64,000 bases of DNA, taken from the NCBI GenBank assembly GCA_003151625.1, contig PLYC01000010.1, forward strand, positions 133,515 through 197,514, read 5' to 3'. The stretch comes from Candidatus Doudnabacteria bacterium (GTDB lineage Bacteria; Patescibacteriota; Doudnabacteria; UBA920). This document shows positions 2,492-57,256 of this stretch, piece by piece. Within the stretch, counting starts at the first letter, position 1. The number at the start of each line of letters is the position of its first letter. A program made the position numbers and the translations under genes. A model generated the notes under the pieces. That model made no database searches and had not been told where the DNA came from. It saw only the letters and a program-made list of their open reading frames with translations.

Positions 2492-3250
2492 TCACCTTAT
2501 TAGCAATGCCGCGCCCAAGGCGCCGGCGTTTTTTAATTTGGAAACCACAATACGAGGTTTTACTCTATAAGTTGAAAACATATTGGCGCAAATTGTTTCG
2601 GCATTTTTCACAAATTTGCGTTTACTATCGGTTGAGACTCCCCCGCCCAAAACTATAATATCCGGATCAAGCATGCGGCAAATATTCCACAATAAGAGGC
2701 TTACGATTTGTGACAGCTGCCTGTTATTATGGGAGTCGCGGGCTTTTTGAAAAAGACTTTCAAAAGTGTGCTTGCCGTCGTAAAGCATCCGGCCTACTTC
2801 TCCGGCTCCATAATGCCCTCCGGTATAAACTTTTCCGTCTAAAACAAAACCGCTGCCTACGCCGGTTCCTAAGATTACACCGACAACACTGTTATAATTC
2901 TTTCCTTGCCCTAATTTTGCTTCGGCGTAAGCAAAACACTTGGCATCGTTTGCGACCTCGAGTTTGAATTTATTCCCAAATAATTTTTTAAAATTAAAAT
3001 TGTTAATATACTTAATGTTCGGCGAATAAACGGCCGTTTGCTTTTTTATATTTATCACTCCTGCCATGCCTATGCCAATGCCGGTAATTTTCCGTCCGAC
3101 CGATAAAAAAGCCACCAAATGTTTTAGGCCATATGCAAAATCAGCCGCTGTTTTTGGAGTGACGATGGTCAGTTCTTTAATAACTTTTTTCCCGTCAAAC
3201 AAAATACCGGCGATTTTTGTCCCCCCAATATCTATTCCAATAATGTACAT
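2492..3250 (-). CDS. ROK-family sugar kinase (glucokinase-like)
   Basis: N-terminus YIIGIDIGGTKIAGILFDGK and GILGTGVGSGFVLDGKVYTGGHYGAGEVG are ROK signatures. Confidence 0.75.
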   Translation of the reverse strand: MYIIGIDIGGTKIAGILFDGKKVIKELTIVTPKTAADFAYGLKHLVAFLSVGRKITGIGIGMAGVINIKKQTAVYSPNIKYINNFNFKKLFGNKFKLEVANDAKCFAYAEAKLGQGKNYNSVVGVILGTGVGSGFVLDGKVYTGGHYGAGEVGRMLYDGKHTFESLFQKARDSHNNRQLSQIVSLLLWNICRMLDPDIIVLGGGVSTDSKRKFVKNAETICANMFSTYRVKPRIVVSKLKNAGALGAALLIR

Positions 3251-6448: not shown

Positions 6449-6690
6449 TGGTTTGTTTATAAGCTTTTACCGAACACCAACCAGGCTAGAAAACTACATT
6501 GGGGTAGAAAATTTTATTTTAGTACTTTTAGTTTCTTTGGCATTCAGTAGAAATATACCTATATATTATGCCACACTTGGCTAAATTATCAAAATCTGAT
6601 AAGATTGGTAAGACCTATAGGTCATATAGGACAAATAAAGACTTTGATTTGCAATCTTAAATCTAAAATCTTTAACCTAATATCAAACAC

Positions 6691-6765
6691 GGCGCTATCA
6701 TCTAATGGTTAGGATAAGTGGTTCTCATCCACTAAATCCGGGTCCGATTCCCGGTAGCGCTACCA
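6691..6765 (+). tRNA. tRNA-Glu (anticodon CUC)
   Basis: Manual cloverleaf: acceptor GGCGCTA/TAGCGCT, anticodon stem AGTGG/CCACT with loop TTCTCAT, T-arm GGGTC-CGATTCC-CGG(T)AGC, 3' CCA encoded. Confidence 0.8.
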
Positions 6766-7582: not shown

Positions 7583-8200
7583 CTACTCTAAGCTTCTAAT
7601 TACACCGACCACTTTACCCTGCACCATCCATTCTTCTTTGGGGTAAATATTTTTGTAGTCCGGGTTTTCCGCTTTTAGATAGGCGCGATTCTTTATTTGA
7701 ATAAAGCGTTTAACCGTGGCTTCGTCGTGGAGCAAGGCTACGACAATGTCATTATTTTTTACATCGTGGGTTGGGCGGACAATAACTAAATCTCCCTCAA
7801 AAATTCCGGCGTTTATCATACTGTCGCCTCTGACTTTTAACAAAAAAACGTCACGGCGGCTTTTAATTAATGTTTGCGGCAAATTAATCCATTCCTCTAT
7901 ATTTTCTTCGGCTAGATGAGGAGTACCGGCCTGAATATTCCCGAGCAGAGGAACTGCCACCAAACCTTTTTGCAAACTTTGGCCAAGGGAATTTAAAACT
8001 TCTATTCCTCTGGCCTTGCCCGTAGTTTTAACAAACCCCTGATCTTCCAAAGCGTTTAACAGCTTTGCAACACCATTTTTGGATTTAACCTTTAAAAAGG
8101 TTGCCATTTCGGAAATACTTGGCGGCAAACTATGATTTCTAATTTGCTCTATAATAAAATGCAACAACTCCTTTTGTCGGTCTGTAATTTCTTTTGGCAT
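7583..8200 (-). CDS. lexA: LexA repressor (S24 peptidase)
   Basis: N-terminal wHTH LTDRQKELLHFI, cleavage-site region VPLLGNIQAG, catalytic GDSM and a downstream Lys. Confidence 0.9.
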   Translation of the reverse strand: MPKEITDRQKELLHFIIEQIRNHSLPPSISEMATFLKVKSKNGVAKLLNALEDQGFVKTTGKARGIEVLNSLGQSLQKGLVAVPLLGNIQAGTPHLAEENIEEWINLPQTLIKSRRDVFLLKVRGDSMINAGIFEGDLVIVRPTHDVKNNDIVVALLHDEATVKRFIQIKNRAYLKAENPDYKNIYPKEEWMVQGKVVGVIRSLE

Positions 8201-9532: not shown

Positions 9533-9613
9533 AAAGATCAAAGTTAAGGATAAAAAAGCATTTTTACTCGGTTTTAATCTTAAATCCTTAATCCTAAATC
9601 TGTTAACTGACTT

Positions 9614-14222: not shown

Positions 14223-14465
14223 AAATTAGTAGTTAGTAGTTAGTATCTAGCTTTTCGACCTTTAATTGTAAATATCTCAAAAATAAAACTCGGGCTTACC
14301 CGAGTGGTTGTAGTTGCCCGATTCATCAGGCCATAAAGCTTCATAAATGAAGCAACTACATATTCCTCGGTGGGCAACCATCTTGCGATGATAATTATGA
14401 CCCTACGGGTCACCAACTGTCTTTGGATATTTTCCCGCAGAGCGGGATCCGCCTTTGGCGGAAAC
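14223..14465 (-). promoter_or_regulatory. Putative rplJ (L10) leader region
   Basis: About 240 nt structured 5' UTR between the mapped promoter and the rplJ start, where the L10(L12)4 autoregulatory leader normally lies. Contains hairpins, for example GGGATCCGCCTTTGGCGG. Confidence 0.4.
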
Positions 14466-18332: not shown

Positions 18333-19127
18333 TTATTGGTTTAATGCTAAATAATAACCGGGATAATAGAAGCCGGTTTTGCGTTTTTGGATGTTGGTAA
18401 AATCCAGGTGGCCGTTTGGACCGCCGGAATAAATTTTGCGGTTTAAGGCTTTTGCCGCGTGCAGCGCCACTGTGGCGTCGTAAACATTCAGGTCTTCGGC
18501 GTAAAACCCAGCTGTTTGTTTTAAAATAAACATAGACTGCTCATCGGCATCATCCATGCTGTTTCCCCAGTTAATAAACTTAATACCTTTGTCGGTAAGC
18601 TCTTTATAAATATCCCCTAAGGCTGTTTTGGGGTTGCCTTTATAATAAAGAACCGCATTTTTTTCCGCCAATGTAGATTCAAATTTTGGCTGGATTCCCA
18701 CAGTTGAATAGGTGTTTTTAATAATTTTTATGGTCCAGTCCAAAACCGGAAAATGTTTAAAAGTATAAAGCAGATTTTTTCCATCGTGCAGAGAAACAAT
18801 AACATTAAAAAATTTGCCTCCTCTGGCATAAATAGCCGTCCCATCAATGGGATCAATTGCCAGGTAGTAACCGTTTGTACCGGTAAATTTTGAAACCAAA
18901 GGCGTGTCTTCTTCGGCCAGCAAACGGCAATTAACCAAATCCGTCTTCACCATCTCCCCCAACAAAAATTCCTGCACAGCCAAATCCGCTTCCGTCACAA
19001 TATCAACCACATTTAACCCCGTGTTAGTTTTGTTGTGATGTTTTGCCGTGCTTTGCATTCTGCAAGCTATTTGCCCTGCTTGCATAAACACAGGTTCCAA
19101 TTCAATTAAAGTTTCAATTAAATTCAT
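18333..19127 (-). CDS. Inositol monophosphatase-family phosphatase
   Basis: Motifs EEDT, AIDPIDGT and a downstream WD pattern of the IMPase/FIG fold. Confidence 0.75.
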   Translation of the reverse strand: MNLIETLIELEPVFMQAGQIACRMQSTAKHHNKTNTGLNVVDIVTEADLAVQEFLLGEMVKTDLVNCRLLAEEDTPLVSKFTGTNGYYLAIDPIDGTAIYARGGKFFNVIVSLHDGKNLLYTFKHFPVLDWTIKIIKNTYSTVGIQPKFESTLAEKNAVLYYKGNPKTALGDIYKELTDKGIKFINWGNSMDDADEQSMFILKQTAGFYAEDLNVYDATVALHAAKALNRKIYSGGPNGHLDFTNIQKRKTGFYYPGYYLALNQ

Positions 19128-19327
19128 ATTCCTGTTTATTATAGCACGATTAAGCAGGCTTTTCTTTTTCCCTGTTTTATCTTATAATATACCTTAGTTG
19201 TCTTGTTTCGGATTTCGATTTTCGACATTCGAATTTTTAATACCTTGGGGCGTCGCCAAGCGGCCCGTCTCGGCCGAGGTTATCCGAATTAGCCGAGCCG
19301 AGGTGGATAAGGCAGCACAAAAAAACT

Positions 19328-19582
19328 ATGCCAGGCTATATTTATGTCCTTTTTAGTAACAAGGACAGTAAAACTTATTTGGGCTCAACCGATAATCTTC
19401 AAAGAAGACTGGACGAACATTTTGCGGGAAAAGTAAAAGCAACAAAAAATAGAAGGCCTTTAAAATTAATTTATACTGAAGAATATATGCTTTTGGGAGA
19501 AGCCAGAAAGAGAGAAATGTACTTAAAAACCCACGCCGGAAGAAAAAGATTAAAGGAATTGCTAAAGAATTTTACAAAATAA
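19328..19582 (+). CDS. Small GIY-YIG nuclease-family protein (YhbQ/UPF0213-like)
   Basis: YIYVLFSNKDSKTYLGSTDNLQRRLDEH...GKVKATKNRRPLKLIYTEEY matches the short GIY-YIG family. Confidence 0.8.
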   Translation: MPGYIYVLFSNKDSKTYLGSTDNLQRRLDEHFAGKVKATKNRRPLKLIYTEEYMLLGEARKREMYLKTHAGRKRLKELLKNFTK

Positions 19583-19598
19583 ATTTTTTACTAACGAT

Positions 19599-19673
19599 TG
19601 GGGTGTCGCCAAGCGGTAAGGCAGGGGCCTTTGAAGCCCCCATTCGTAGGTCCGAATCCTACCACCCCAGCCA
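19599..19673 (+). tRNA. tRNA-Gln (anticodon UUG)
   Basis: Manual cloverleaf: acceptor TGGGGTG/CACCCCA (U1-A72 as in E. coli tRNA-Gln), D-arm GCC-AAGCGGTAA-GGC, anticodon arm GGGGC-CTTTGAA-GCCCC, T-arm GTAGG-TCCGAAT-CCTAC, G73, CCA. Confidence 0.8.
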
Positions 19674-19909
19674 TTAGTAAATAATTTATAAAGCATTGGC
19701 GTCGCTCGTCTCGGCTTCGCCGAGCCGAAGTCGGACCAAGCAGCCCGTCTCGGCCGAGGCTATCCGAATTAGCCGAGCCGAGGTCGGATAAGGCAGGGGC
19801 CTTTGAAGCCCCCATTCGTAGGTTCGAATCCTACCGCCCCAGCCAACAACTCTCTCATAATACCGGAGACCGAAGAGTATCAGCGTTTCAAGAGACAGTC
19901 AATGATTTT

Positions 19910-20584
19910 ATGCCGTCAGATAAATTCGAAAAAACAATAGCTGCAATAGTCTGCTGCTACAACGAGGCTCGAACGATTGAACGAGTAATATCCGATTTAC
20001 TCAAAATCCCATTTTTATCGCAAATTATTGTTGTGGATGATGGTTCCTCTGACAATAGCCGGCAAATATTACAAAAATATAAAGAAGAAGTTACTATTCT
20101 TTTCAATGCATCTAATAAAGGAAAAGGTTGTAGTGTTGCCCGTGCATTGGAGATTGCAAATTGCGATATCATCCTACTATTAGACGCTGACATCATTAAC
20201 TATACTGCTGCTGATTTAAAGTTGCTTGTAGAGCCAGTTATGCAGTGGAAGTTCGACTTTAGTGTAAAAGTTCCTGATAGTTATTTTTTTCTTTATGTAA
20301 ACGTTAGCGGAATCCGATGTTATTGGCGTAAAGATTTATTGCCTCTTGCTACCGCTTTTACGCGAACCAGCAAATACGGTATAGAGTTGTTTTTAAACAA
20401 AGCAATGCGGCAAAAAAGCGGGGTATTTATAAAACTAAGCGATTACCGGCACACTGATAAATTCCAGAAGTATCCTTTTTTCAGAGCTGTTTGGGAATAT
20501 GGCAAAGAGGCCGGGAGCCTATTGTATCAGATAATTCTTACTTCCGACCGAGGGGCGTTATACAGTATTAAAAAGAATCCCTAA
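19910..20584 (+). CDS. Family 2 glycosyltransferase (DPM1-like)
   Basis: IVCCYNEARTIERVI, VVDDGSSDNS and LLDADI (DxD) motifs. Confidence 0.75.
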   Translation: MPSDKFEKTIAAIVCCYNEARTIERVISDLLKIPFLSQIIVVDDGSSDNSRQILQKYKEEVTILFNASNKGKGCSVARALEIANCDIILLLDADIINYTAADLKLLVEPVMQWKFDFSVKVPDSYFFLYVNVSGIRCYWRKDLLPLATAFTRTSKYGIELFLNKAMRQKSGVFIKLSDYRHTDKFQKYPFFRAVWEYGKEAGSLLYQIILTSDRGALYSIKKNP

Positions 20585-23959: not shown

Positions 23960-25285
23960 TTAAACCTCCTGGAGCACCTGCCCCAGGGCATTCCGGACAT
24001 CGGCCTCGAAAGCGGAGCGGCATTCGAGGGCGTGGGTGAGGGTGGCTTCTTTGCCGCTGACGCAGACCACCAACTGGCATCCGCGGAGTTTGGCCTGTTC
24101 TACCGCTCCCGCGGAGGAAAGCGGGTCGTAGCTCAGGTCAACGTTGATGCCAGCATTGCGAAGCTGCTGGGCGAATCGGAAAGCCATGGCTGTACTGTCG
24201 TTATTGCCGCAGTACGCTACCAGGACTTTATCCGGAAGGACAAGCTCGGATTTGAGCATGTCCAATTCCTTCATGACTGCAAGGATGCGGTCGAGGCCGA
24301 AGGCCATGCCGACCGCCGGTTCAGGCGGAGCGCCGAAAGCGCCCACCAGATTGTCGAATCGGCCACCGCCGAGTACCGCGCCGATTGGCACGCCGGGAAT
24401 CACTCCTTCCAGAATGAAACCGGTGTAATAGTCGGCGCCGCGAGCCAACGTAAGGTCGATTCTGACGTGAGATAGCACTTCGTCGGGCAGATAAGAGAAA
24501 ATCTCCCGGAGCTCAGCGATGCCGGTTAATCCGGCCGGCTGGTCGTGAAGATTGTCTTGAAGGTGTTGAAGCATGTCTTCGAGCGAGCCGGAAATAGCGA
24601 TGACGCCCATAATGCTTTCTATCAGGGCGCTGCCAACCCGGCGGCGTTTCAGGTCTTCGCGAATCCCTTCCAGGCCTGCCTTGGTCACCTTGTCGGCGTA
24701 ATCCATAGCGCGTTGCACCTTGAGGATGCCGTCTTTGCCGGTGATACCGGCGCGGGCAGCAATGGCCTGGATGATCATGCGATGATTGACGCGGATGACG
24801 AACTGCCGGAAACCGAGGTCGCAAAGGCCGCGGTATGCTACGGAGATAATATCAGCGTCAGCCAGAAGGCTGGAAGCGCCAATGATGTCCCCATCGCATT
24901 GCATAAACTCGCGGAAGTGCCCCTTGTCCGGTTTGTCATCGCGAAACACATAGCCGAACTGATACCGCTTGTAGGGGCGGGGCAGGTCGGGGTGCATGCT
25001 GGCTACGCGAGCCAGCGGTACCGTTAGGTCGTAGCGGAGAACGAGACGGTGTTTCTTGTTGTCTCCCAGGCGGAAGATGAGCTTCTCGCCCTCGCCGTGG
25101 TGGCCGTCAAATACGACCTCGTTCTCGATGGTGGGGGTATCGTGGGGAGTGAAACCGCTCTTCTCGTAGACAGAACGGAGAATACGGATAACGTAATCAC
25201 GCACCCGCATTCCAAGCCCCAGCTTGTCAGTAGTGCCCGGAGGGACGGCGTTCTTAAGCCGAGACCGGGTCTGTGGATGACCCAT
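23960..25285 (-). CDS. Divergent class-II HisRS-like paralog 1 (full length with anticodon-binding-like domain)
   Basis: Altered motif 2 RDDKPDKGHFREFMQCDGDIIG, histidine-binding ARGADYYTG, motif 3 LGGGRFDNL and a C-terminal alpha/beta ABD-like region. Confidence 0.8.
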   Translation of the reverse strand: MGHPQTRSRLKNAVPPGTTDKLGLGMRVRDYVIRILRSVYEKSGFTPHDTPTIENEVVFDGHHGEGEKLIFRLGDNKKHRLVLRYDLTVPLARVASMHPDLPRPYKRYQFGYVFRDDKPDKGHFREFMQCDGDIIGASSLLADADIISVAYRGLCDLGFRQFVIRVNHRMIIQAIAARAGITGKDGILKVQRAMDYADKVTKAGLEGIREDLKRRRVGSALIESIMGVIAISGSLEDMLQHLQDNLHDQPAGLTGIAELREIFSYLPDEVLSHVRIDLTLARGADYYTGFILEGVIPGVPIGAVLGGGRFDNLVGAFGAPPEPAVGMAFGLDRILAVMKELDMLKSELVLPDKVLVAYCGNNDSTAMAFRFAQQLRNAGINVDLSYDPLSSAGAVEQAKLRGCQLVVCVSGKEATLTHALECRSAFEADVRNALGQVLQEV

Positions 25286-26621
25286 TGTTTGCGCTCTCCT
25301 TGGCGCGGATGAGGCTAATAGCCTCTTTGGTGCTCACGTTGCTGGTTTGTCCTGTGGACATATCCTTGAGGGAAACATAGCCGCCGGCGACTTCGTCGTC
25401 GCCGATCACGATGATGAAAGGAATTCCCAGCCGGCTGGCGTAGGTTACCTTTTTTTTCAGCTTGGCATCATCGAAGTATACGGCCGTAGGTATGCCGCCT
25501 TCGCGCAACTCGGTAGCTGCCTGCAAAGGAACGCGGAGATCGGAAGTTTGCGGAATGACCAGCACTATAGCGGGCGTTGCGGATTTGGGAGTAATGATGC
25601 CCGCTTCGCGAAGCTGGTAAAACAGCCTGGTCAGGCCAATGGAAATTCCGACGCCGGGCAACTGTTTGTTGGTATAGTACCCAGCCAGGTCGTCGTAACG
25701 TCCGCCCGAACAGACACTGCCGATGCCGGGGTAGTCATTCAGCACCGTTTCGTACACGGTGCCCGTGTAATAGTCGAGGCCGCGGGCGATTGTCAGGTCA
25801 ATAGCGTAATTCTGCCCGGGAACCCCAAGCGCCGAGACGTAGGAAATTACCTTCTCCAATTCGTCGACGCCGGTATGGAAAGTGCCGTTGCTGATCTGCA
25901 TCTGCTTGAGCTGGGAGAGGATGGCGGCCGTGTCGCCTGTCAATCCGATGAACGCAAGAACTTCGCGCGCCGCATTGGGTGGCGCTCCTAGACCGGCCAA
26001 CTCCTGCTGAACTGCTTCCTGCCCGGCTTTCTCCAGCCTGTCGACCGAACGGAGGATGTCCGCGGCCTGGCTGGCAAGTCCGAGCGATTCGAAGAAGCCG
26101 TTCAGAATCTTGCGATTGTTGATTTTGATGGTGAAGCGGGAAAAGCCGAGCGCCGTAAAGGTTGCGTAGATGACGCTGGGAATTTCCGCGTCGTTTAGCA
26201 AACTCAAAGCGCCGTCGCCGATGATGTCGATGTCGCACTGGTAGAATTCCCGGAAACGGCCTCTCTGCGGCCGCTCTCCGCGGAACACTTTTCCGATGTG
26301 GTAGCGCCGGAAAGGAAACGCGAGGTCCGGATAGTGCTGCGCTACATAGCGGGCCAACGGAACCGTGAGATCAAACCTCAAGGCCAAATCGCTGTCGCCC
26401 TTGGTGAAGCGGTAAATCTGCTTTTCGGTCTCACCGCCCGCCTTGGCCAAAAGCACTTCGGCCAATTCGATGACGGGGGTATCTAGCGGAATGAACCCGA
26501 ACCGTTCATAGCTTTTCTGGATTACTCCCAACATGCCGTTGAACAGCATTTGGTCTGCCGGGAGCAGTTCCATAAAGCCGGAAAGGATCCGGGGGGTGAC
26601 TTTACTTGGATTGTTGTTCAT
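25254..26621 (-). CDS. Class-II HisRS-like paralog 2 (more canonical)
   Basis: Motif 2 FRGERPQRGRFREFYQCDIDIIG, ARGLDYYTG, CSGGRYDDL and ABD region AIVLVIP...IPFIIVIGDDE. Its 3' end overlaps paralog 1 by 32 nt. Confidence 0.8.
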   Translation of the reverse strand: MNNNPSKVTPRILSGFMELLPADQMLFNGMLGVIQKSYERFGFIPLDTPVIELAEVLLAKAGGETEKQIYRFTKGDSDLALRFDLTVPLARYVAQHYPDLAFPFRRYHIGKVFRGERPQRGRFREFYQCDIDIIGDGALSLLNDAEIPSVIYATFTALGFSRFTIKINNRKILNGFFESLGLASQAADILRSVDRLEKAGQEAVQQELAGLGAPPNAAREVLAFIGLTGDTAAILSQLKQMQISNGTFHTGVDELEKVISYVSALGVPGQNYAIDLTIARGLDYYTGTVYETVLNDYPGIGSVCSGGRYDDLAGYYTNKQLPGVGISIGLTRLFYQLREAGIITPKSATPAIVLVIPQTSDLRVPLQAATELREGGIPTAVYFDDAKLKKKVTYASRLGIPFIIVIGDDEVAGGYVSLKDMSTGQTSNVSTKEAISLIRAKESANNGSSTDPVSA

Positions 26622-26875
26622 AATATTTGATCAATCCTCCTGCATGGTACAAACTACGGAATGACTGGCTCCATAATTCTGCCAATCGATGGTAAAGAAC
26701 AAACAAGCTCATCCTTATTGCACGGATAAACTTATCGTATTACTATAAATCAATTTAGCTTATATTGTCAAGGAGATTGGGTTTGGCCAGAGAAGCCCCT
26801 GACAAAATTTTTTAACTTGATTTTATTGGATAAATAATATATATAAAAGTCGAGTGAACTGTAAAAAAAGATATC

Positions 26876-26920
26876 CGGGCAGCTCCTAAGAGGAACTGCC
26901 CGGAAGATAAAACCTTTGCC
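26876..26920 (-). terminator. Terminator after the MIO-lyase gene (CCGGGCAG...CTGCCCGG + T7 on the minus strand)
   Basis: Seen directly. Confidence 0.6.
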
Positions 26921-26933
26921 AAACGGCTCGGGT

Positions 26934-28589
26934 CTAAGTGGTCAACGCGTTGCAGGCTGACTGCATCAGACTTCCGTCTGCCAGCATGCCCTCGACTGCG
27001 TCCAACTCGGCCTTGAGATACCGGTCATCAAACCAGGTCTGGTGGCCTTTTGCCGTTTCCTTCTGGAATACGCCGCGGATGTGGCCGTAAGCCTCGCTCG
27101 TTCCGAGCCCGAGCTGCTGGAGGTTTTCCGGCAGCAAATGCTGAGTGAGGGTGATCCCTTGCGACGCCATGAACAGTTCGGCGGCAAGCACGCGACGGAT
27201 GATCGGCAGCATGGAGCGAACTTTGAGAGCGCTGTTCATTCCCATGCTCACCCAGTCTTCCTGGTCTGCCGAGGTCGTGATCGAATGAGTCGAGCAGGGA
27301 TTGGCCAGAAGCGCAATCTGATTCACCAAGGAGGCAACCCCATATTGCACGATCATCAGGCCGGTATTGGCCGTATTGGGACCGGCAAGATCCGCAGGCA
27401 AACCGTAGCTTAACCTGGGAGTAGTCAGAGCGAAACCTCGCCGGTCACTGGCGCCGGCAAGCGGCGTCAGGGCTATTGCGAGGTAATCCAGCGGCGCCGC
27501 CAAAGGCTGACCGTGAAAATTGCCGCCTGAAATGGCTATGTATTGCGCGCCGTTCTCATCATCCTCGAACACCAGAGGATTGTCGGTTGCCGAGTTGAGT
27601 TCGACTTCGAGAATCGATTCCAGATGAGAAAGTGCTTGGTATGCCGCCGCATGAATCTGGGGCGCACAGCGGAACGAGTAAGCGTCCTGAACGCGGGGAA
27701 CCTGCTTGCCGTGGCTAAACTTCTTCTGTTCGTCCGGAAAGGCTACGGATCTGGCTTCTTCCGTAATTCTCCTGGATCCTTCGGTAAACTTCCTGATGCG
27801 CGCCGCGGAATGAACCTGACCGGGTAATGGCCTGGCTTCATGGATGCGGGCATCGAAAGCGTTCTGTTCTCCGCGAATAGCCTCTAAAGACAAGGCCGTA
27901 GCGAGGTCGGCGGTTTCCAAGAGAATCCAGCCGTCCACTACCGCAAGACACGCAATTGCCGCAATGAAGTTGGCGCCGTTTGTCAGTGCCATGGCTTCTT
28001 TGGCCGCAAGCGTGAGGGGTTTGAGGCCGTGGTTTTCAAGAACTGTTCTGGCCGGTTGAATTTCGCCCGCCACGAACATTTGACCTTCCTCAAGGCCGAT
28101 TATGCCCGCGGACATGTGAGCCAAGGGAATTAAATCTCCCGAGGCGCCCACCGATCCGAACTCAGGGACTACCGGGGTAAGCCCCAAATTCAGGCAATCG
28201 CGGAGCCTTTCAATCAGGCAAGGTCGCACGCCGGAGTGACCCTTCAAAAAGTTGTTCAGCCGAACAAGCATGGCTGCTCGGGTGACTTCGGGTGAAAGCG
28301 GGTTCCCATAGCCGCAGCAATGGGCCGGGATATAACGCATCTGGTAATCGGACAGTTCGTCCGACGGCAACACTTGGTTCTTGCGGGAGCCACAGCCGGT
28401 ATTGACACCGTACATGATGTCTCCACGGATAGCGGCGGCTTCGAGTCCTTGACGGAAACGTTCGATTTTCGCAAACGTCTCGGGGTTGATCTGAACCTCG
28501 TGATGATGTCTGGCCACGGCTATAACCTGTTCAGTGGTTAAGCTGTGACCGTCTACCTCCACGATTCTCTGCGTAAGCATAGATTTCAC
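26934..28589 (-). CDS. MIO-dependent aromatic amino-acid ammonia-lyase/aminomutase family protein (HAL/PAL-like)
   Basis: Ala-Ser-Gly MIO triad in GSVGASGDLIPLAHM, plus YGVNTGCG and a selectivity-region A-H (IPAHCCGYG) resembling the HAL S-H. 551 aa. Confidence 0.85.
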   Translation of the reverse strand: MKSMLTQRIVEVDGHSLTTEQVIAVARHHHEVQINPETFAKIERFRQGLEAAAIRGDIMYGVNTGCGSRKNQVLPSDELSDYQMRYIPAHCCGYGNPLSPEVTRAAMLVRLNNFLKGHSGVRPCLIERLRDCLNLGLTPVVPEFGSVGASGDLIPLAHMSAGIIGLEEGQMFVAGEIQPARTVLENHGLKPLTLAAKEAMALTNGANFIAAIACLAVVDGWILLETADLATALSLEAIRGEQNAFDARIHEARPLPGQVHSAARIRKFTEGSRRITEEARSVAFPDEQKKFSHGKQVPRVQDAYSFRCAPQIHAAAYQALSHLESILEVELNSATDNPLVFEDDENGAQYIAISGGNFHGQPLAAPLDYLAIALTPLAGASDRRGFALTTPRLSYGLPADLAGPNTANTGLMIVQYGVASLVNQIALLANPCSTHSITTSADQEDWVSMGMNSALKVRSMLPIIRRVLAAELFMASQGITLTQHLLPENLQQLGLGTSEAYGHIRGVFQKETAKGHQTWFDDRYLKAELDAVEGMLADGSLMQSACNALTT

Positions 28590-34818: not shown

Positions 34819-35438
34819 TAATTAATACCGCACTTGGATAAGAATTTTGCTTTGGCCTGCTTATTAATCGGGCTTTCGATTAATACGGCTTGGGATTCTA
34901 ATATCGTGAATAACGGCACCAAATTATGCGCTTTTAAAGTAGTGCCGGTTTGCACTATATCGCAAATAGCGTCTGCCAGGTTCAAATCTGGCGTTATTTC
35001 CACGGAACCGGAAATGGGAATTATGGCCGCCTCAAGCTTCTCTTTTTTTAAATAGTCGGTAAGCAGTTTTGGATAGGAAGTGGCGATTCTTTCTCCTTCC
35101 AAATCCTTGGAGGTTTTTATAACGGAGTCTGCCGGAGCCGCTATCATCAGCCTGCATTTGCCAAAATCAAACTTTTTTAATATTTTCGGTTCAAATTCTT
35201 TTTCCGCGAGGACATTTTGTCCCACAATGCCAAAATCCGCCACGCCCCGGCTCACGTATTCCGGAATATCATCGTCCCTAAGATATAATACATCAAGGTC
35301 AAAATTTTGACAGGGCAGAATTAGCGAATGCCCGTTTGGAGCAAAAGTCAGCCCGCAAGAAACAAGGAAGTCCATACTGCCCTGATTCAGCCGGCCGCTT
35401 TTTTGAACGGCAATTCTTAGTCTTTCCGGAGTTTTCAT
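34818..35438 (-). CDS. hisG: ATP phosphoribosyltransferase, short form
   Basis: 206 aa short HisG (LRIAVQKSGRL). Overlaps the upstream HisRS gene by ATGA. Confidence 0.9.
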   Translation of the reverse strand: MKTPERLRIAVQKSGRLNQGSMDFLVSCGLTFAPNGHSLILPCQNFDLDVLYLRDDDIPEYVSRGVADFGIVGQNVLAEKEFEPKILKKFDFGKCRLMIAAPADSVIKTSKDLEGERIATSYPKLLTDYLKKEKLEAAIIPISGSVEITPDLNLADAICDIVQTGTTLKAHNLVPLFTILESQAVLIESPINKQAKAKFLSKCGIN

Positions 35439-36727
35439 AATGAGCTATATCCTTTAAAGTAATTAATAATCTGGTCCTGCGGTATAGTTTTTTGCTTGCC
35501 GGTCTTCATCATTTTAATGGTTACCTCGCCGCGTTCCTTTTCGTCCGATCCGCACATAACAACAAAAGGTATGCTTTTTTTGTCCGCGTATTTTAATTGT
35601 TTCGCAATTTTGGCCGGTTCAAAATAAATTTCCGCTTTTAACCCAGCCGTCTGTATATCACCCAAAATTTTAAGTGAATCCGGCAAGGTGTCCGCGTCAA
35701 AATATGCTACTAATGCCTGCGAATTTAAGCTTATTTCGTCAAGCAGTTTAAGTTGTTCCATCGCTACAATAATACGGTCAAATCCAAAGGCAACGCCCAC
35801 CCCGCTGAATTTTTCAGGGCAAAAAAGTGAGCACAGGTCGTCATACCTGCCTCCGGCGCAAACGGCTCCAATGTCCACTTCCGGTATGTAAACTTCAAAA
35901 ATAACGCCGGTATAATAATCCAGACCCCGCGCCAGACTGGGATCAAAAACCAAAACTTCATCCGGAATTCCAAACCCCTTTGCAATTTTTAAAAACTCCT
36001 GGATTTCAGTAATGTTATATTTTTGAAATAAGTTTAATCTTTCGTTTGAACTGCCTTCTACGCACACTAATTCCAATAATTTTGAAACCTCGGAGTCAGA
36101 AGCTAAAGACTTAAGCTCCTGTTTGATTTCGGCAGGGCTTAACTTATCCATTTTATCCAATATCCTAATCATCCCTGCCTGATTCTCGGCCGGGATTTTT
36201 AGGTCGTTCAAAATACTGTTAATCAATCTGCGGCTGTTAAATTTAATTTTAAACTTGGAAAAGCCCAAGGTAGTAAAAACTTCGGCCATTACTTTGGCGA
36301 TTTCGGCTTCAGCCACCAGGCTCTGTGTGCCGATAATATCTATGTCGCACTGGTAAAATTCCCTATATCTGCCTTTTGCCGGCCTGTCAGCCCGCCAAAC
36401 TCTTCCAATCTGGTACCGCTTAAAAGGCATTGGTAAAGTTTTGTAGTTGGCGGCCACCACTCTGGCAAAGGGGACGGTTTGATCATAACGCAGGCAAATA
36501 TCTCTGTCGCCATTATCCTTAAAACGGTAAACTAGTTTGGATCCCTCTTCGCCATACTTGCCTAATATTGTTTCCGCGTATTCAATTGCCGGAGTTTCGA
36601 TGGCATCGTAGCCAAACTTTGTAAACACAGTTTTAATTTTTTCCAAAACATAATCTCTCTTTGCCATTTGTTCGGGCAAAAAGTCCCTTGTTCCCTGTAA
36701 TATTTTTGGTTCAATAAATTGGTTCAT
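35435..36727 (-). CDS. hisS: Histidyl-tRNA synthetase (catalytically intact), translationally coupled to short hisG; possible dual HisS/HisZ role
   Basis: Motif 2 WRADRPAKGRYREFYQCDIDIIG, ARGLDYYTG, motif 3 GGRYDDL and a complete anticodon-binding domain. Confidence 0.85.
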   Translation of the reverse strand: MNQFIEPKILQGTRDFLPEQMAKRDYVLEKIKTVFTKFGYDAIETPAIEYAETILGKYGEEGSKLVYRFKDNGDRDICLRYDQTVPFARVVAANYKTLPMPFKRYQIGRVWRADRPAKGRYREFYQCDIDIIGTQSLVAEAEIAKVMAEVFTTLGFSKFKIKFNSRRLINSILNDLKIPAENQAGMIRILDKMDKLSPAEIKQELKSLASDSEVSKLLELVCVEGSSNERLNLFQKYNITEIQEFLKIAKGFGIPDEVLVFDPSLARGLDYYTGVIFEVYIPEVDIGAVCAGGRYDDLCSLFCPEKFSGVGVAFGFDRIIVAMEQLKLLDEISLNSQALVAYFDADTLPDSLKILGDIQTAGLKAEIYFEPAKIAKQLKYADKKSIPFVVMCGSDEKERGEVTIKMMKTGKQKTIPQDQIINYFKGYSSL

Positions 36728-44600: not shown

Positions 44601-44887
44601 AGAGTCTCTTTATAATTTTCCTGCTAGGGTTCGAACCAATTTTTTGATAATTGGTAGAAAGCATTCCGCATATTTAAGACAATTTAGATTCTGAACCGAG
44701 CAGGGTTCGAATACTAGCGCCGCAGCCATCAACACTTTTTATCGAGTGACCGAGGTGCGTCTCAAAAAGTCCACATCCGAGACGCGTCACCACACAGTGA
44801 TGCGTGCAATCGTACCGAGAGGTGTCAGCCCCGCGTGGCCAAATTTTTACACCCCGACAGGGATGGAGCCACAAAGATAGAGAATAA

Positions 44888-57230: not shown

Positions 57231-57256
57231 AGAGATTAGAGATTAAAGATTAAAGT

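What the first reader, a model, noticed from the sequence alone, without database searches (positions are those of the whole stretch)
19246..19845. tRNA-Gln locus: an intact tRNA-Gln plus a YhbQ-like GIY-YIG gene, nested between two halves of a second tRNA-Gln
The sequence TGGGGCGTCGCCAAGCGG (19246-19263) is an exact tRNA-Gln 5' portion (acceptor, D-stem and D-loop start). The sequence TAAGGCAGGGGCCTTTGAAGCCCCCATTCGTAGGTTCGAATCCTACCGCCCCAGCCA (19789-19845) is the matching remainder. Its acceptor is complementary to the 5' piece and not to the intervening intact copy, whose acceptor is TGGGGTG/CACCCCA. Joined, they make a flawless 75-nt tRNA-Gln(UUG). Between them lie a 52-nt GC-rich hairpin unit present twice, a GIY-YIG nuclease gene and a full tRNA-Gln. 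Possible explanations: an interrupted (non-canonical intron-containing or split) tRNA; a tRNA gene disrupted by a GIY-YIG-associated mobile cassette with a long duplication; or a rearrangement intermediate.
Basis: seen in the sequence. Interest (0 to 1): 0.7.

Follow-up and report, generated by a model that had tools for sequence, protein, structure and literature searches.

The report
tRNA gene split by nuclease cassette
A glutamine tRNA gene of an uncultured ultra-small (CPR/Patescibacteria-type) bacterium was cut in two by a small selfish-looking insert carrying a tiny GIY-YIG nuclease gene, GC-rich hairpins and its own replacement tRNA, and the same layout recurs in many bacteria, hinting at what this widespread uncharacterised nuclease family does.

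Summary
Window 19246-19263 and 19789-19845 are the two parts of one tRNA-Gln(UUG); joined, ARAGORN calls a perfect 75-nt tRNA. Between them lie a 44-nt hairpin, an 84-aa GIY-YIG gene, an intact tRNA-Gln and further hairpins. A relative has an uninterrupted tRNA-Gln at the same site, 72/75 identical and with the same acceptor pair. So the halves are the resident gene, broken in the D-loop after G18 by about 525 bp.

The layout is not unique. In protein-seeded loci from many genomes, 33 of 78 relatives of this nuclease lie within 400 nt of a tRNA, 39 of 41 on the same strand. In 15 of 18 "nuclease then tRNA" loci a copy of the tRNA 5' part sits upstream, usually positions 1-18/19 followed by a GC-rich hairpin. 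The nuclease is a minimal UPF0213/Slx1-like domain under purifying selection.

Best reading: a homing-like nuclease cassette that nests in tRNA genes and brings a replacement tRNA. The nested copy is the working gene and the halves are pseudogene remnants. A functional split or intron-containing tRNA is not supported. Nuclease specificity and the role of the hairpins are inferred, not shown. I found no description in the papers searched; T4 SegB is the closest known system.

The parts
19206..19236 (+). Array of 7-nt repeats (about 4.4 copies, TTTCGAA-like) in the leader just upstream of the resident tRNA-Gln. It belongs to the native locus, not to the insert.
   Evidence: TRF. A similar 7-nt array precedes the uninterrupted tRNA-Gln of relative L203 and the window's tRNA-Glu.
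19246..19263 (+). Fragment A: positions 1-18 of the resident tRNA-Gln (acceptor strand TGGGGCG, D-stem, D-loop up to G18).
   Evidence: Its acceptor strand pairs with CGCCCCA at 19835-19841 and matches relative L203.
19264..19307 (+). GC-rich hairpin 1 (CCCGTCTCGG...CCGAGGTGGA), inserted in the D-loop after G18.
   Evidence: Fold of 19264-19308: -21.4 kcal/mol, z = -3.4. Homologous hairpins sit at the same tRNA position in L001, L005, L048, L055, L122, L124-126, L129 and L130.
19308..19315 (+). TAAGGCAG: tRNA positions 19-26, repeated at 19789-19796. It ends the upstream pseudo-fragment.
   Evidence: families D2/D4.
19328..19582 (+). 84-aa minimal GIY-YIG nuclease gene (UPF0213 / YhbQ / bacterial Slx1-like). 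There is no DNA-binding domain.
   Evidence: Pfam PF01541 8.8e-17. Profile hits to PDB 1ywl and 1zg2 (UPF0213) and weakly to SLX1. Residues invariant across homologs. dN/dS about 0.15-0.36.
19599..19673 (+). Copy B: intact tRNA-Gln(UUG) with acceptor TGGGGTG/CACCCCA and T-loop TCCGAAT. This is the presumed working gene. It is flanked by an AT-rich inverted repeat (19579-19605 / 19663-19689).
   Evidence: ARAGORN, Rfam 60.4 bits, inverted repeat I1, fold of 19570-19700 z = -3.6.
19696..19705 (+). Decayed 5' end (TTGGCGTCGC, 2 nt missing from the acceptor strand) of downstream pseudo-copy C. It is the resident C6 allele type.
   Evidence: by alignment to 19246-19256.
19706..19735 (+). Hairpin of a second type (TCGTCTCGGCTTCGCCGAGCCGAAGTCGGA), inserted in the D-stem of copy C.
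   Evidence: Fold of 19707-19735: -12 kcal/mol. The same hairpin type sits next to the main hairpin in L122 and L098.
19736..19743 (+). CCAAGCAG: D-arm/D-loop remnant of copy C (GCGG changed to GCAG).
   Evidence: D2.
19744..19788 (+). GC-rich hairpin 2, near-identical to hairpin 1, at the same D-loop position.
   Evidence: Fold -24.8 kcal/mol, z = -3.65. Repeat D2, 96%.
19789..19845 (+). Positions 19-76 plus CCA of the resident tRNA-Gln: anticodon arm, canonical T-arm TTCGAAT, acceptor CGCCCCA.
   Evidence: Together with fragment A it is 72/75 identical to the uninterrupted gene of L203.
44702..44770 (+). Third, distant copy of the tRNA-Gln 3' end (GGGTTCGAATACTAGCGCCGCAGCCA) plus about 40 nt of downstream flank. 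It looks like an att-type direct repeat, suggesting that 19846-44701 is an old island integrated at the resident gene.
   Evidence: 0 expected by chance; aligns with the flank of copy C and, by my count from that alignment, better with the flank of L203. No recombinase was found among the ten ORFs I scanned in and around this stretch.

Best explanation
The locus is a resident tRNA-Gln(UUG) gene interrupted in its D-loop, between G18 and U19 of the gene as counted here. The insert is about 525 bp (19264-19788).

The insert consists of:
- a GC-rich palindromic hairpin and a short repeat of tRNA positions 19-26;
- an 84-aa minimal GIY-YIG nuclease gene;
- a complete replacement tRNA-Gln;
- a decayed copy of the tRNA 5' part carrying two more hairpins.

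The nested copy (19599-19673) supplies tRNA-Gln. The two flanking halves are pseudogene remnants.

The insert belongs to a widespread class of small nuclease cassettes that sit inside or against tRNA (and tmRNA) genes, on the same strand, and restore the part of the tRNA they displace.

Proposed mechanism (homing-like):
1. The nuclease breaks an uninterrupted tRNA gene in or near a conserved loop (the D-loop GG, or the T-loop).
2. The break is repaired by copying a cassette-bearing allele, using the tRNA sequence itself as homology on both sides.
3. This leaves the resident halves flanking the cassette.
4. The cassette is probably transcribed from the tRNA promoter.

Shown: the anatomy, the empty site in a relative, the recurrence of the layout and of the breakpoint, the link between nuclease lineage and tRNA type, and purifying selection on the nuclease.

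Inferred: that the nuclease makes the break, where it cuts, that spread is by recombinational repair, and what the hairpins do.
For: **Anatomy and joined tRNA:**

**Empty site.** L203 encodes the neighbouring inositol-monophosphatase-like gene at 70% identity. It has an uninterrupted tRNA-Gln in the same divergent position behind a 7-nt repeat leader. That gene is 72/75 identical to A plus the 3' part of C and shares C6:G67. Copy B differs at positions 6, 55 and 67.

**Recurrence.** The layout '5' fragment + hairpin, nuclease, intact tRNA' is seen for:
- tRNA-Gln in L001/2, L005, L048, L055, L098, L115, L121-126, L129;
- tRNA-Gln in L128, with a different hairpin and a different tRNA-Gln sequence type;
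- tRNA-Asp (L130), tRNA-Pro (L160) and tRNA-Cys (L153, L163, L165).

**Counts.**
- 15 of 18 such loci keep an exact copy of at least 10 nt of the tRNA 5' part upstream of the ORF (controls 0/17). Most of these copies span positions 1-18/19.
- In the mirror type (tRNA, nuclease, 3' fragment), 6 of 22 keep a 3' copy of at least 10 nt (control 1/18). In those six it starts in or just before the T-arm/T-loop in all but one.
- In protein-seeded genome loci, 33 of 78 have a tRNA within 400 nt. Density is 0.49 per kb near the ORF against 0.056 per kb further out, and 39 of 41 are on the same strand.
- The nearest protein relative shares tRNA type and orientation in 22 of 40 cases; permutation mean 4.8, maximum 12.

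**The nuclease is maintained.** pS 0.69-0.89 with pN 0.16-0.29; dN/dS 0.15-0.36.

**Presence/absence and decay states.**
- L034 has the dnaX-like gene followed directly by the tRNA.
- L047 keeps fragment and hairpin but has lost the ORF.
- L095 shows the same nested layout for tRNA-Leu without a nuclease gene.

**Precedent.** The T4 SegB GIY-YIG homing endonuclease sits in a tRNA cluster and recognises the T-arm motif GGTTCRANTCC in tRNA genes (PMC2330249).
Against: - There are no cleavage or expression data.
- The protein is only a catalytic domain, with no DNA-binding domain. Sequence-specific homing of the SegB/I-TevI kind is therefore not expected without a partner or structure recognition.
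- The nested intact tRNA keeps an unchanged D-loop (AAGCGGTAAGG, the same as in the uninterrupted relative). No immunity of the cassette-bearing allele is visible.
- The C55 variant of B is not specific to nuclease-linked tRNAs: 6/36 near against 6/58 elsewhere.
- Copy B differs from the resident gene at only 3 of 75 positions, so a local duplication cannot be excluded.
- More than half of the homolog loci have no tRNA within 400 nt.
- The hairpins also occur far from any nuclease gene.
- Only one empty-site relative was found, and it is distant.
Confidence: 0.68

Rival explanations
1. Hairpin-ended transposon-like element. The minimal GIY-YIG domain is a structure-specific nuclease (like Slx1) acting on the extruded GC-rich hairpins or on folded single-stranded tRNA-gene DNA. 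The unit 'hairpin, nuclease, tRNA, hairpin' is the autonomous element. The solo hairpins found in intergenic DNA, pseudo-tRNAs and protein genes are its non-autonomous, MITE-like derivatives. Insertion goes into loop-coding positions of tRNA genes.
For: - In the window the insert is bounded on both sides by the same hairpin (19264-19307 and 19744-19788). L121 is similar.
- The hairpin termini CCCGTCTCG...CCGAGGCGGA are kept across CPR phyla while synonymous sites of the adjacent ORF are saturated.
- Insertions fall in the D-loop, anticodon loop and T-loop, often right after the conserved D-loop GG or after the TTC of the T-loop (my reading).
- 56 of 90 nuclease ORFs have a strong hairpin within 160 nt upstream, against 7 of 79 controls. 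Other phyla have other hairpin families, for example a GCTNAGC core with co-varying stems.
- Solo hairpins occur in MiaA, TsaD, GatA, Tgt and intergenic DNA.
- The protein family is Slx1-like.
Against: - No target-site duplication is seen around hairpins.
- I know of no precedent for a GIY-YIG transposase.
- The window has no solo hairpins outside this locus.
- Genome-level co-occurrence of solo hairpins and the nuclease could not be tested.
- Many canonical loci have a hairpin only on the upstream side.
- The upstream-hairpin statistic is inflated by tRNA genes lying upstream in some loci, and its controls are mostly coding sequence.
Confidence: 0.18
2. No mobility of the nuclease. A local tandem duplication of tRNA-Gln decayed, unrelated small palindromic elements settled in the dead copies, and the GIY-YIG gene is an ordinary host gene (for example a repair nuclease) that is co-transcribed with tRNA genes.
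For: - B and the resident gene differ at only 3 of 75 positions.
- The nuclease is under purifying selection, like a host gene.
- The hairpins behave as independent elements.
- No relatives were found in viral contigs.
- More than half of the homologs are not next to a tRNA.
Against: - It does not explain why the ORF lies exactly between a 5' (or 3') tRNA fragment and the intact gene in 15/18 and 6/22 loci.
- It does not explain the same breakpoint after the D-loop GG in tRNA-Gln and tRNA-Asp, and in the D-loop for tRNA-Pro and tRNA-Cys, across distant phyla.
- It does not explain presence/absence at syntenic sites (L203 against the window; L034 and L047 against L001 and L005).
- It does not explain why nuclease lineages track tRNA type across phyla.
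Confidence: 0.1
3. The two halves are a working split or intron-containing tRNA-Gln. The hairpin acts as an excised intervening sequence, or as a pairing handle for trans-joining.
For: - The joined halves give a flawless tRNA.
- The hairpin sits in the D-loop, where an outward-pointing extension is conceivable.
- Two copies of a palindromic hairpin could pair with each other.
Against: - U1:A72, a bacterial tRNA-Gln feature (my own knowledge), points to a bacterium. No archaeal-type splicing motif or intron family is detected.
- Related loci usually have only the 5' fragment.
- The downstream copy carries further lesions.
- An intact tRNA-Gln always lies alongside.
- The relative has the plain gene.
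Confidence: 0.02
4. The 5' tRNA fragment plus hairpin is a cis-regulatory leader (a partial tRNA mimic). It would control translation of the nuclease, or maturation of the downstream tRNA, from a shared transcript.
For: - The fragment is identical to the 5' part of the adjacent tRNA in each lineage although lineages differ.
- The hairpin lies 5-30 nt upstream of the start codon.
- The ORF often ends inside the tRNA, with the stop codon at tRNA positions 8-10.
Against: - The identity can come from gene conversion or from the insertion itself.
- In the window the fragment differs from the adjacent tRNA at position 6 and matches the downstream pseudo-copy instead.
- The same hairpins occur in contexts with no ORF.
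Confidence: 0.05

Closest known systems
Phage T4 SegB, a free-standing GIY-YIG homing endonuclease in the tRNA gene cluster (PMC2330249)
   Same: - A GIY-YIG nuclease gene embedded among tRNA genes.
- It cuts inside tRNA genes by recognising a conserved tRNA motif (the T-arm GGTTCRANTCC).
- The gene and the neighbouring tRNA genes are inherited preferentially.
- Related genomes lack the gene at the same place.
   Different: - From my own knowledge, SegB is a larger protein with a separate DNA-binding part. It is phage-borne and lies between tRNA genes.
- Here the protein is an 84-aa catalytic domain of the Slx1/UPF0213 branch, on a cellular chromosome.
- It is nested inside one tRNA gene, with both displaced halves kept, GC-rich hairpins at the junctions and a private replacement tRNA.
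- No relatives were found in 2.9 million viral contigs.
- Cleavage is untested.
UPF0213 / YhbQ / bacterial Slx1-like minimal GIY-YIG proteins (PDB 1ywl EF2693, 1zg2 BH0048; PMC1564403)
   Same: - The same sequence family (profile E = 4e-12 and 7e-10).
- The same minimal size with no auxiliary domain.
   Different: - In the papers I could search, the family has no assigned role and no described link to tRNA genes.
- PMC1564403 notes only a fusion to a TrmH (Gm18) tRNA methyltransferase as a hint of RNA metabolism.
Integrase-driven genomic islands and prophages in tRNA genes, with att-site tRNA fragments (PMC9897764)
   Same: - A tRNA gene is the target.
- A partial tRNA copy is left at one end while the gene is restored.
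- Annotation tools may call the fragment a tRNA.
- The window also seems to hold such an island (3' copy at 44702-44770).
   Different: - No integrase lies in the 525-bp insert.
- The duplicated part is the 5' part, with the break in the D-loop rather than the usual 3' segment.
- The element is tiny and carries a whole tRNA.
Homing-endonuclease cassettes that bring a replacement piece of the target gene (the mobile GIY-YIG ORF in Allomyces mitochondrial atp6, recalled from memory) and 'fractured genes' with a homing endonuclease between gene halves (PMC2677866, title and abstract only)
   Same: - An endonuclease gene sits between two parts of one gene.
- The displaced resident part persists as a remnant.
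   Different: - Those are protein-coding genes in mitochondria or environmental phage-like DNA.
- In fractured genes the halves are rejoined by split inteins, whereas here the halves appear dead.
Small palindromic mobile repeats: Rickettsia palindromic elements, REP/RAYT, yeast mitochondrial GC clusters (PMC4478555 for the last; the others from memory)
   Same: GC-rich hairpins scattered in an AT-rich genome, found in RNA genes, in intergenic DNA and in frame in protein genes.
   Different: - The sequence family is different.
- Here the hairpins sit at fixed loop positions of pseudo-tRNAs next to a GIY-YIG gene.
- No tyrosine transposase partner is seen in the loci held.
Archaeal split and intron-containing tRNA genes (Nanoarchaeum-type halves, bulge-helix-bulge introns; from memory)
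   Same: Two separated pieces would make one perfect tRNA, with GC-rich sequence at the junction.
   Different: - This is a bacterial tRNA-Gln.
- The junction sequences are identical, not complementary.
- An intact copy lies between the halves.
- The halves carry extra lesions.
- The relative has the plain gene.

Membership tests
GIY-YIG nuclease superfamily, UPF0213/YhbQ/bacterial Slx1-like branch | GIY-YIG catalytic domain detectable by profile. | tested here: met
   Pfam PF01541 E = 8.8e-17, residues 3-72.
GIY-YIG nuclease superfamily, UPF0213/YhbQ/bacterial Slx1-like branch | Closest solved relatives are UPF0213 proteins or SLX1. Minimal size with no extra domain. | tested here: met
   1ywl 3.8e-12, 1zg2 7.3e-10, SLX1 7wme 5e-3. 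The protein is 84 aa, and the top library hits are mostly 80-130 aa.
GIY-YIG nuclease superfamily, UPF0213/YhbQ/bacterial Slx1-like branch | Conserved catalytic Tyr/Tyr/Arg/His/Glu positions. | tested here: met
   Y17, R27, H31 and E63 are invariant in the alignment of 9 homologs, and the first Tyr (Y7) is present in all full-length members. Their catalytic role is assumed from the family.
Free-standing homing endonuclease (SegB-like) | Site-specific cleavage of the allele that lacks the gene. | not testable with these tools
   Needs purified protein and DNA substrates.
Free-standing homing endonuclease (SegB-like) | Presence/absence polymorphism at otherwise homologous sites. | tested here: met
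   Window against L203. dnaX-tRNA-Gln loci with the gene (L001, L005, L048, L055, L122), without it (L034), and with a deleted ORF (L047).
Free-standing homing endonuclease (SegB-like) | Separate DNA-binding domain giving a long recognition site. | tested here: not met
   Only the catalytic domain is present.
Free-standing homing endonuclease (SegB-like) | The target site is altered or split in the allele that carries the gene. | tested here: inconclusive
   The resident gene is split at the D-loop and hairpins occupy the junctions. The nested intact tRNA, however, keeps an unchanged D-loop and, in many loci, an unchanged T-loop.
Integrase-mediated island in a tRNA gene | Tyrosine or serine recombinase gene inside the element. 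| tested here: not met
   The 525-bp insert holds only the 84-aa ORF and a tRNA. None was found among the ten ORFs scanned in and around 19.8-47 kb.
Integrase-mediated island in a tRNA gene | Direct repeat of the tRNA 3' segment at the far end. | tested here: not met
   For the nuclease insert, the repeat is the 5' part plus hairpin. A 3' repeat does exist 24.9 kb away, but it belongs to a different, larger insertion.
Split or intron-containing tRNA | No intact copy is needed. The halves carry complementary junction sequences or a recognised intron. | tested here: not met
   An intact copy lies between the halves. The junction sequences are identical. Rfam finds no intron family at E up to 10.
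Split or intron-containing tRNA | A mature joined tRNA exists. | not testable with these tools
   Needs small-RNA sequencing.
Miniature palindromic mobile repeats (RPE/REP/MITE-like), for the hairpins | Many dispersed copies in unrelated contexts. | tested here: met
   About 28 low-GC metagenome loci hold copies: pseudo-tRNA-Gln, -Arg and -Leu, intergenic DNA, and MiaA, TsaD, GatA and Tgt genes. Within the window, copies occur only at this locus.
Miniature palindromic mobile repeats (RPE/REP/MITE-like), for the hairpins | Target-site duplication and a partner transposase. | tested here: inconclusive
   No simple duplication is seen at the hairpin ends. Solo copies are flanked by locus-specific 7-nt repeats. 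The partner enzyme is unknown.

The most novel reading that the evidence does not exclude
The minimal GIY-YIG nuclease and the GC-rich hairpins form a new kind of bacterial mobile system.

- A structure-specific, Slx1-like nuclease acts on hairpins or on folded tRNA-gene DNA.
- It inserts 'hairpin, nuclease, tRNA' units into loop-coding positions of tRNA genes, typically right after the conserved D-loop GG or after the TTC of the T-loop. These are the nucleotides that meet at the tRNA elbow.
- Solo hairpins are its non-autonomous offspring, and they have spread into pseudo-tRNAs, leaders and even reading frames of housekeeping genes.

This would give the large UPF0213/YhbQ family a function. 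To my knowledge it would also be the first DNA element mobilised by a bare GIY-YIG domain.
Probability: 0.22. Interest if true: 0.85.

Novelty: new variant of a known kind. Interest (0 to 1): 0.64.

Why it matters
1. **A lead on an uncharacterised family.** Minimal GIY-YIG proteins of the UPF0213/YhbQ type are very common: 4,621 clusters at 50% identity score E <= 1e-10. I found no established role for them. The systematic nesting in tRNA genes seen here, with displaced fragments and hairpins, gives a concrete hypothesis that can be tested with a simple cleavage assay and a two-plasmid homing assay.

2. **A different way of colonising a tRNA gene.** Classical islands integrate at the 3' end using a recombinase. 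Here there is no recombinase, the break is in the D-loop or T-loop, and the element carries its own tRNA or tRNA part.

3. **Practical annotation problems.** Such loci produce false or missed tRNA calls. The pseudo-copy at 19776-19834 passes the Rfam threshold. They also produce wrong gene starts: the source's own gene call of 67 aa lacks the GIY motif. tRNA counts and gene-essentiality inferences for reduced CPR genomes should take this into account.

Tried and rejected
- **Group I/II intron or any known RNA family in the insert or hairpins.** Rfam at E up to 10 on 19000-20000, and at gathering thresholds on the window and 20 related loci, gave only tRNA and one tmRNA.
- **C55 in the T-loop of copy B as an immunity mutation** (by analogy with the SegB site). 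Rejected: C55 occurs in 6/36 nuclease-adjacent and 6/58 other tRNAs, including the window's tRNA-Glu. One search used a faulty register and was redone.
- **Phage origin.** No relative with the NRRPLKLI motif was found in viral contigs. PHROGs gave only a weak generic hit.
- **Exact look-ups of the window's nuclease and of the source's gene call.** Both found nothing.
- **Promoter and terminator consensus scan of 19050-20000.** No sites.
- **The metagenome hairpin pattern.** Most of the 113 hits were high-GC coding sequences (chance matches, by eye encoding PVSAEVV-type peptides). These were discarded and only low-GC loci were used.
- **Orphan T-arm motifs near nuclease genes lacking a called tRNA.** Only 4 were found, so this did not raise the tRNA-associated fraction much.
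- **Eight literature searches** (GIY-YIG with tRNA genes, fragments, CPR, YhbQ/UPF0213, tmRNA, hairpins). None returned a description of this arrangement. The Patescibacteria tRNA-intron paper does not mention it. The library is incomplete, so this is not proof of novelty.
Full report
**What is in the sequence**

On the + strand the locus reads as follows.

| Coordinates | Feature |
|---|---|
| 19206-19236 | 7-nt repeat leader |
| 19246-19263 | fragment A, tRNA-Gln positions 1-18 (TGGGGCGTCGCCAAGCGG) |
| 19264-19307 | 44-nt GC-rich hairpin |
| 19308-19315 | TAAGGCAG (tRNA positions 19-26) |
| 19316-19327 | 12 nt spacer |
| 19328-19582 | 84-aa ORF |
| 19599-19673 | intact tRNA-Gln(UUG), copy B |
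| 19696-19845 | copy C |

Copy C consists of:
- a damaged 5' end (TTGGCGTCGC);
- a 30-nt hairpin of a second type (19706-19735);
- CCAAGCAG;
- a second copy of the main hairpin (19744-19788);
- the complete remainder of a tRNA-Gln (19789-19845).

Supporting measurements:
- ARAGORN and Rfam call B (60.4 bits). Rfam also scores part of C above threshold, at 35.5 bits.
- The 45-nt stretches holding the main hairpins fold at -21.4 and -24.8 kcal/mol, z about -3.5.
- Joining 19246-19263 to 19789-19845 gives a 75-nt tRNA-Gln with a perfect acceptor stem containing C6:G67. B has T6:A67 and differs from the joined sequence at 3 positions.
- The 18-nt 5' piece has only these two occurrences in 64 kb, against 0.03 expected by chance.

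I add that A continues past the hairpin and that C is a near full-length pseudo-copy with extra lesions.

**The same site in a relative is uninterrupted**

The gene upstream, on the opposite strand, is an inositol-monophosphatase-like protein. Its homolog at 70% identity (P0013, locus L203) has the following, in the same divergent position and behind a comparable 7-nt repeat leader: a plain tRNA-Gln(UUG), 72/75 identical to A plus the 3' part of C, with the same C6:G67 pair.

So A and the 3' part of C are the resident gene, and about 525 bp (19264-19788) has been inserted after G18. Two other relatives (L201, L205) have no tRNA-Gln at this place.

A further copy of the tRNA-Gln 3' end with about 40 nt of flank lies at 44702-44770. 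By my count from the alignment, it matches the flank of L203 better than the flank after C does. This suggests that the resident gene had earlier served as the attachment site of a roughly 25-kb island.

**The protein**

- The ORF is a GIY-YIG domain (Pfam 8.8e-17).
- A profile of it and eight homologs hits the UPF0213 proteins EF2693 and BH0048, and weakly SLX1, in the PDB.
- This is the minimal "Slx1 non-eukaryote" branch described in PMC1564403, which has no auxiliary domain.
- Catalytic-type residues are invariant.
- Between lineages, synonymous sites are saturated (pS 0.69-0.89) while pN is 0.16-0.29. dN/dS is 0.15-0.36 where it can be estimated. The gene is therefore maintained.
- The family is large: 4,621 clusters at 50% identity score E <= 1e-10, mostly 80-130 aa among the top hits.
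- No relative was found in viral contigs.
- The source's own gene call (P0001, 67 aa) appears to start at an internal TTG and lacks the GIY motif.

**The arrangement recurs**

*Close homologs.* Homologs at 55-68% identity show [quoted passage not shown]. They come from metagenome contigs and from MAGs labelled Moraniibacteriota, Parcubacteria, Doudnabacteria and Saccharibacteria. The ORF often ends inside the tRNA.

*Other tRNAs and other hairpins.* The same design occurs with:
- a different hairpin in an Elusimicrobia MAG (L128);
- tRNA-Asp (L130), tRNA-Pro (L160) and tRNA-Cys (L153, L163, L165).

A mirror design "tRNA, hairpins, nuclease, 3' fragment" occurs for tRNA-Glu, tRNA-Cys and others (L004, L134, L147, L034, L100).

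*Counts.*
- 15 of 18 "nuclease then tRNA" loci keep an exact 5' copy of at least 10 nt upstream (controls 0/17), mostly spanning positions 1-18/19.
- 6 of 22 mirror loci keep a 3' copy of at least 10 nt (control 1/18). In those six it starts in or just before the T-arm/T-loop in all but one.
- In the 78 protein-seeded genome loci, 33 have a tRNA within 400 nt. Density is 0.49 per kb against 0.056 per kb in the outer flanks, and 39 of 41 are on the same strand. One locus has a tmRNA instead.
- Nuclease lineages track tRNA type and orientation: 22 of 40 nearest neighbours agree, against a permutation mean of 4.8 and maximum of 12.

*Decay and absence states.*
- L047 keeps fragment and hairpin but has lost the ORF.
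- L034 has the tRNA directly after the dnaX-like gene.
- L095 shows an intact tRNA-Leu nested between matching halves of another tRNA-Leu allele, with the same hairpin and no nuclease.
- L121, the best protein match in genomes, has a hairpin-bearing pseudo-copy on both sides of "nuclease + intact tRNA", as the window does.

**The hairpins**

- In the window they occur only at this locus.
- Elsewhere the same hairpin is found in a pseudo-tRNA-Arg anticodon loop (L026), in a pseudo-tRNA-Leu (L095) and in AT-rich leaders.
- Flanked by locus-specific 7-nt repeats, it is also found in frame inside MiaA, TsaD (twice), GatA and Tgt genes, and in a RuvC-like gene (identified by eye only).
- They are thus small palindromic elements in their own right.
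- Their fixed position after the D-loop GG in the upstream fragments of tRNA-Gln and tRNA-Asp cassettes points to a real link with the nuclease. So do their conserved termini next to an ORF whose silent sites are saturated, and the general excess of strong hairpins upstream of homologous ORFs (56/90 against 7/79; other phyla use other hairpin families). The link is unresolved.
- Rfam has no family for them.

**How it most likely works**

The best-supported account is a homing-like cassette:
1. The nuclease breaks an uninterrupted tRNA gene in or near a conserved loop.
2. Repair copies a cassette-bearing allele, using tRNA sequence as homology on both sides.

For the window, a donor of the L121 type would yield exactly the observed order. 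That donor has the form: fragment-hairpin, nuclease, tRNA, pseudo-copy with hairpins. Synthesis would start from resident positions 11-18 and be resolved at TAAGGCAG. The resident halves would end up outside, and the donor's hairpins, ORF, tRNA B and decayed 5' copy inside.

- Shown: the anatomy, the empty site, the recurrent breakpoints, the tRNA-type specificity of nuclease lineages, and selection on the ORF.
- Inferred: the cut, its position, repair-mediated spread, co-transcription from the tRNA promoter (no consensus promoter or terminator was found), and any role of the hairpins.

Weak points:
- The protein has no DNA-binding domain.
- The nested tRNA keeps an unchanged D-loop, so immunity is unexplained. 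T4 itself also carries SegB sites.
- B is only 3 nt from the resident gene.
- More than half of the homologs are not beside a tRNA.

The main rival keeps the cassette but makes the hairpins its ends and the nuclease structure-specific. A non-mobile duplication-and-decay account and a regulatory-leader account are less likely. A functional split tRNA is very unlikely.

**Comparison with what is known**

- Functionally closest is T4 SegB. It is a GIY-YIG homing endonuclease in a tRNA cluster, and it recognises the T-arm motif and cuts many tRNA genes.
- By sequence the protein belongs to UPF0213/Slx1-like, not to the SegB/I-TevI branch.
- Known sources of tRNA gene fragments in prokaryotes are att sites of integrative elements, CRISPR spacers and tmRNA (PMC9897764). 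This mechanism is not among them.
- Eight literature searches and a check of the Patescibacteria tRNA-intron paper found no description. The library is incomplete.

I therefore rate it a new variant of a known kind: a tRNA-targeting free-standing GIY-YIG element. There is a moderate chance that the hairpin-nuclease pairing is something more unusual.

**Caveats**

- Part of the locus set was seeded with the hairpin pattern and is biased toward tRNA-Gln. The enrichment figures quoted for tRNA adjacency use only the protein-seeded genome loci.
- ORF starts in related loci are approximate.
- The hairpin excess upstream of ORFs is partly inflated by upstream tRNA genes, and its controls are mostly coding sequence.
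- Organism labels are those of MAG records.
- The tRNA position numbers are counted along this gene, not standard tRNA numbering.

Noticed in passing
window 44702-44770 (with 19846-44701): A third copy of the tRNA-Gln 3' end plus about 40 nt of flank lies 24.9 kb downstream of copy C. It looks like an att-type repeat bounding an old island. The island would hold GT2, GNAT and LD-carboxypeptidase genes, HisRS-like genes, an aromatic lyase, an IS3-type transposase and glycogen genes. No recombinase was found among the ten ORFs scanned in and around this stretch.
   Followed up: partly
L072 (hairpin at 7656-7683, as oriented), L024, L028, L040, L114, L075: The same GC-rich hairpin, flanked by locus-specific 7-nt tandem repeats, sits in frame inside conserved protein genes: MiaA, TsaD (twice), GatA, Tgt and a RuvC-like gene. 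The RuvC-like gene was identified by eye only. This recalls the Rickettsia palindromic elements. Five of the six hosts act on tRNA.
   Followed up: partly
window 6653-6684 and 19206-19236; L203 about 2905-2935 (minus strand): Short arrays of 7-nt repeats lie directly upstream of both tRNA loci of the window and of the relative's tRNA-Gln. Many other 7-nt arrays occur in the window's intergenic DNA (for example 9576-9600, 14226-14245, 57233-57255). Their role is unknown; they may be leader or promoter elements.
   Followed up: partly
window 19599-19673 and 6691-6765; L001, L055, L125, L131, L173 and others: T-loops read TCCGA (C at position 55 instead of the near-universal U) in 12 of 94 distinct tRNAs of these loci, including both window tRNAs. 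The variant is not specific to nuclease-linked tRNAs.
   Followed up: partly
window 23960-28589 and 35435-36727: A high-GC stretch (0.54-0.58 against about 0.41) holds two tandem HisRS-like genes and an aromatic amino acid lyase. A third HisRS gene lies at 35435-36727. The stretch was probably acquired horizontally.
   Followed up: partly
window 19278-19296 and 19758-19776: The top of the main hairpin is a 5-bp stem with the 7-nt loop TCCGAAT. This is the same loop as the T-loop of copy B, so it is a T-arm look-alike. It is not seen in the hairpins of other loci.
   Followed up: no
window 19579-19605 / 19663-19689: An AT-rich inverted repeat (27 nt, 85%) extends the acceptor stem of copy B into its flanks. 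The fold of 19570-19700 has z = -3.6. No counterpart was noticed in related loci.
   Followed up: no
L004 2895-2945; L148, L155, L156, L158, L189, L144, L183, L151, L177 (within 160 nt upstream of the nuclease ORF): A second hairpin family lies upstream of homologous nuclease genes in other phyla. Pairs of perfect hairpins have a GCTNAGC centre and stems that differ between loci but stay complementary.
   Followed up: partly
L122 2907-3040; L123 2853-3000; L125 2865-2930; L001 1188-1215: A conserved GC-rich structured insertion of roughly 110-150 nt (starting CGGGCAG[AC]AG[TC]GAGA) sits in the T-loop of a 3' pseudo-fragment downstream of the intact tRNA-Gln. It is absent from the window and matches no Rfam family.
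   Followed up: no
L183 1969-2345: A tmRNA gene lies directly upstream of a homologous nuclease ORF. The association therefore extends to the tRNA-like end of tmRNA.
   Followed up: no
L121 2284-2470 and 2872-3085: The hairpin is tandemly repeated (at least 3 copies visible, the rest masked as N) at the D-loop site of both pseudo-copies flanking the nuclease and intact tRNA-Gln.
   Followed up: no
window 19379-19582 (source gene call P0001): The public annotation of this contig calls a 67-aa product that appears to start at an internal TTG, which removes the GIY motif. Homolog alignment supports the ATG at 19328.
   Followed up: partly
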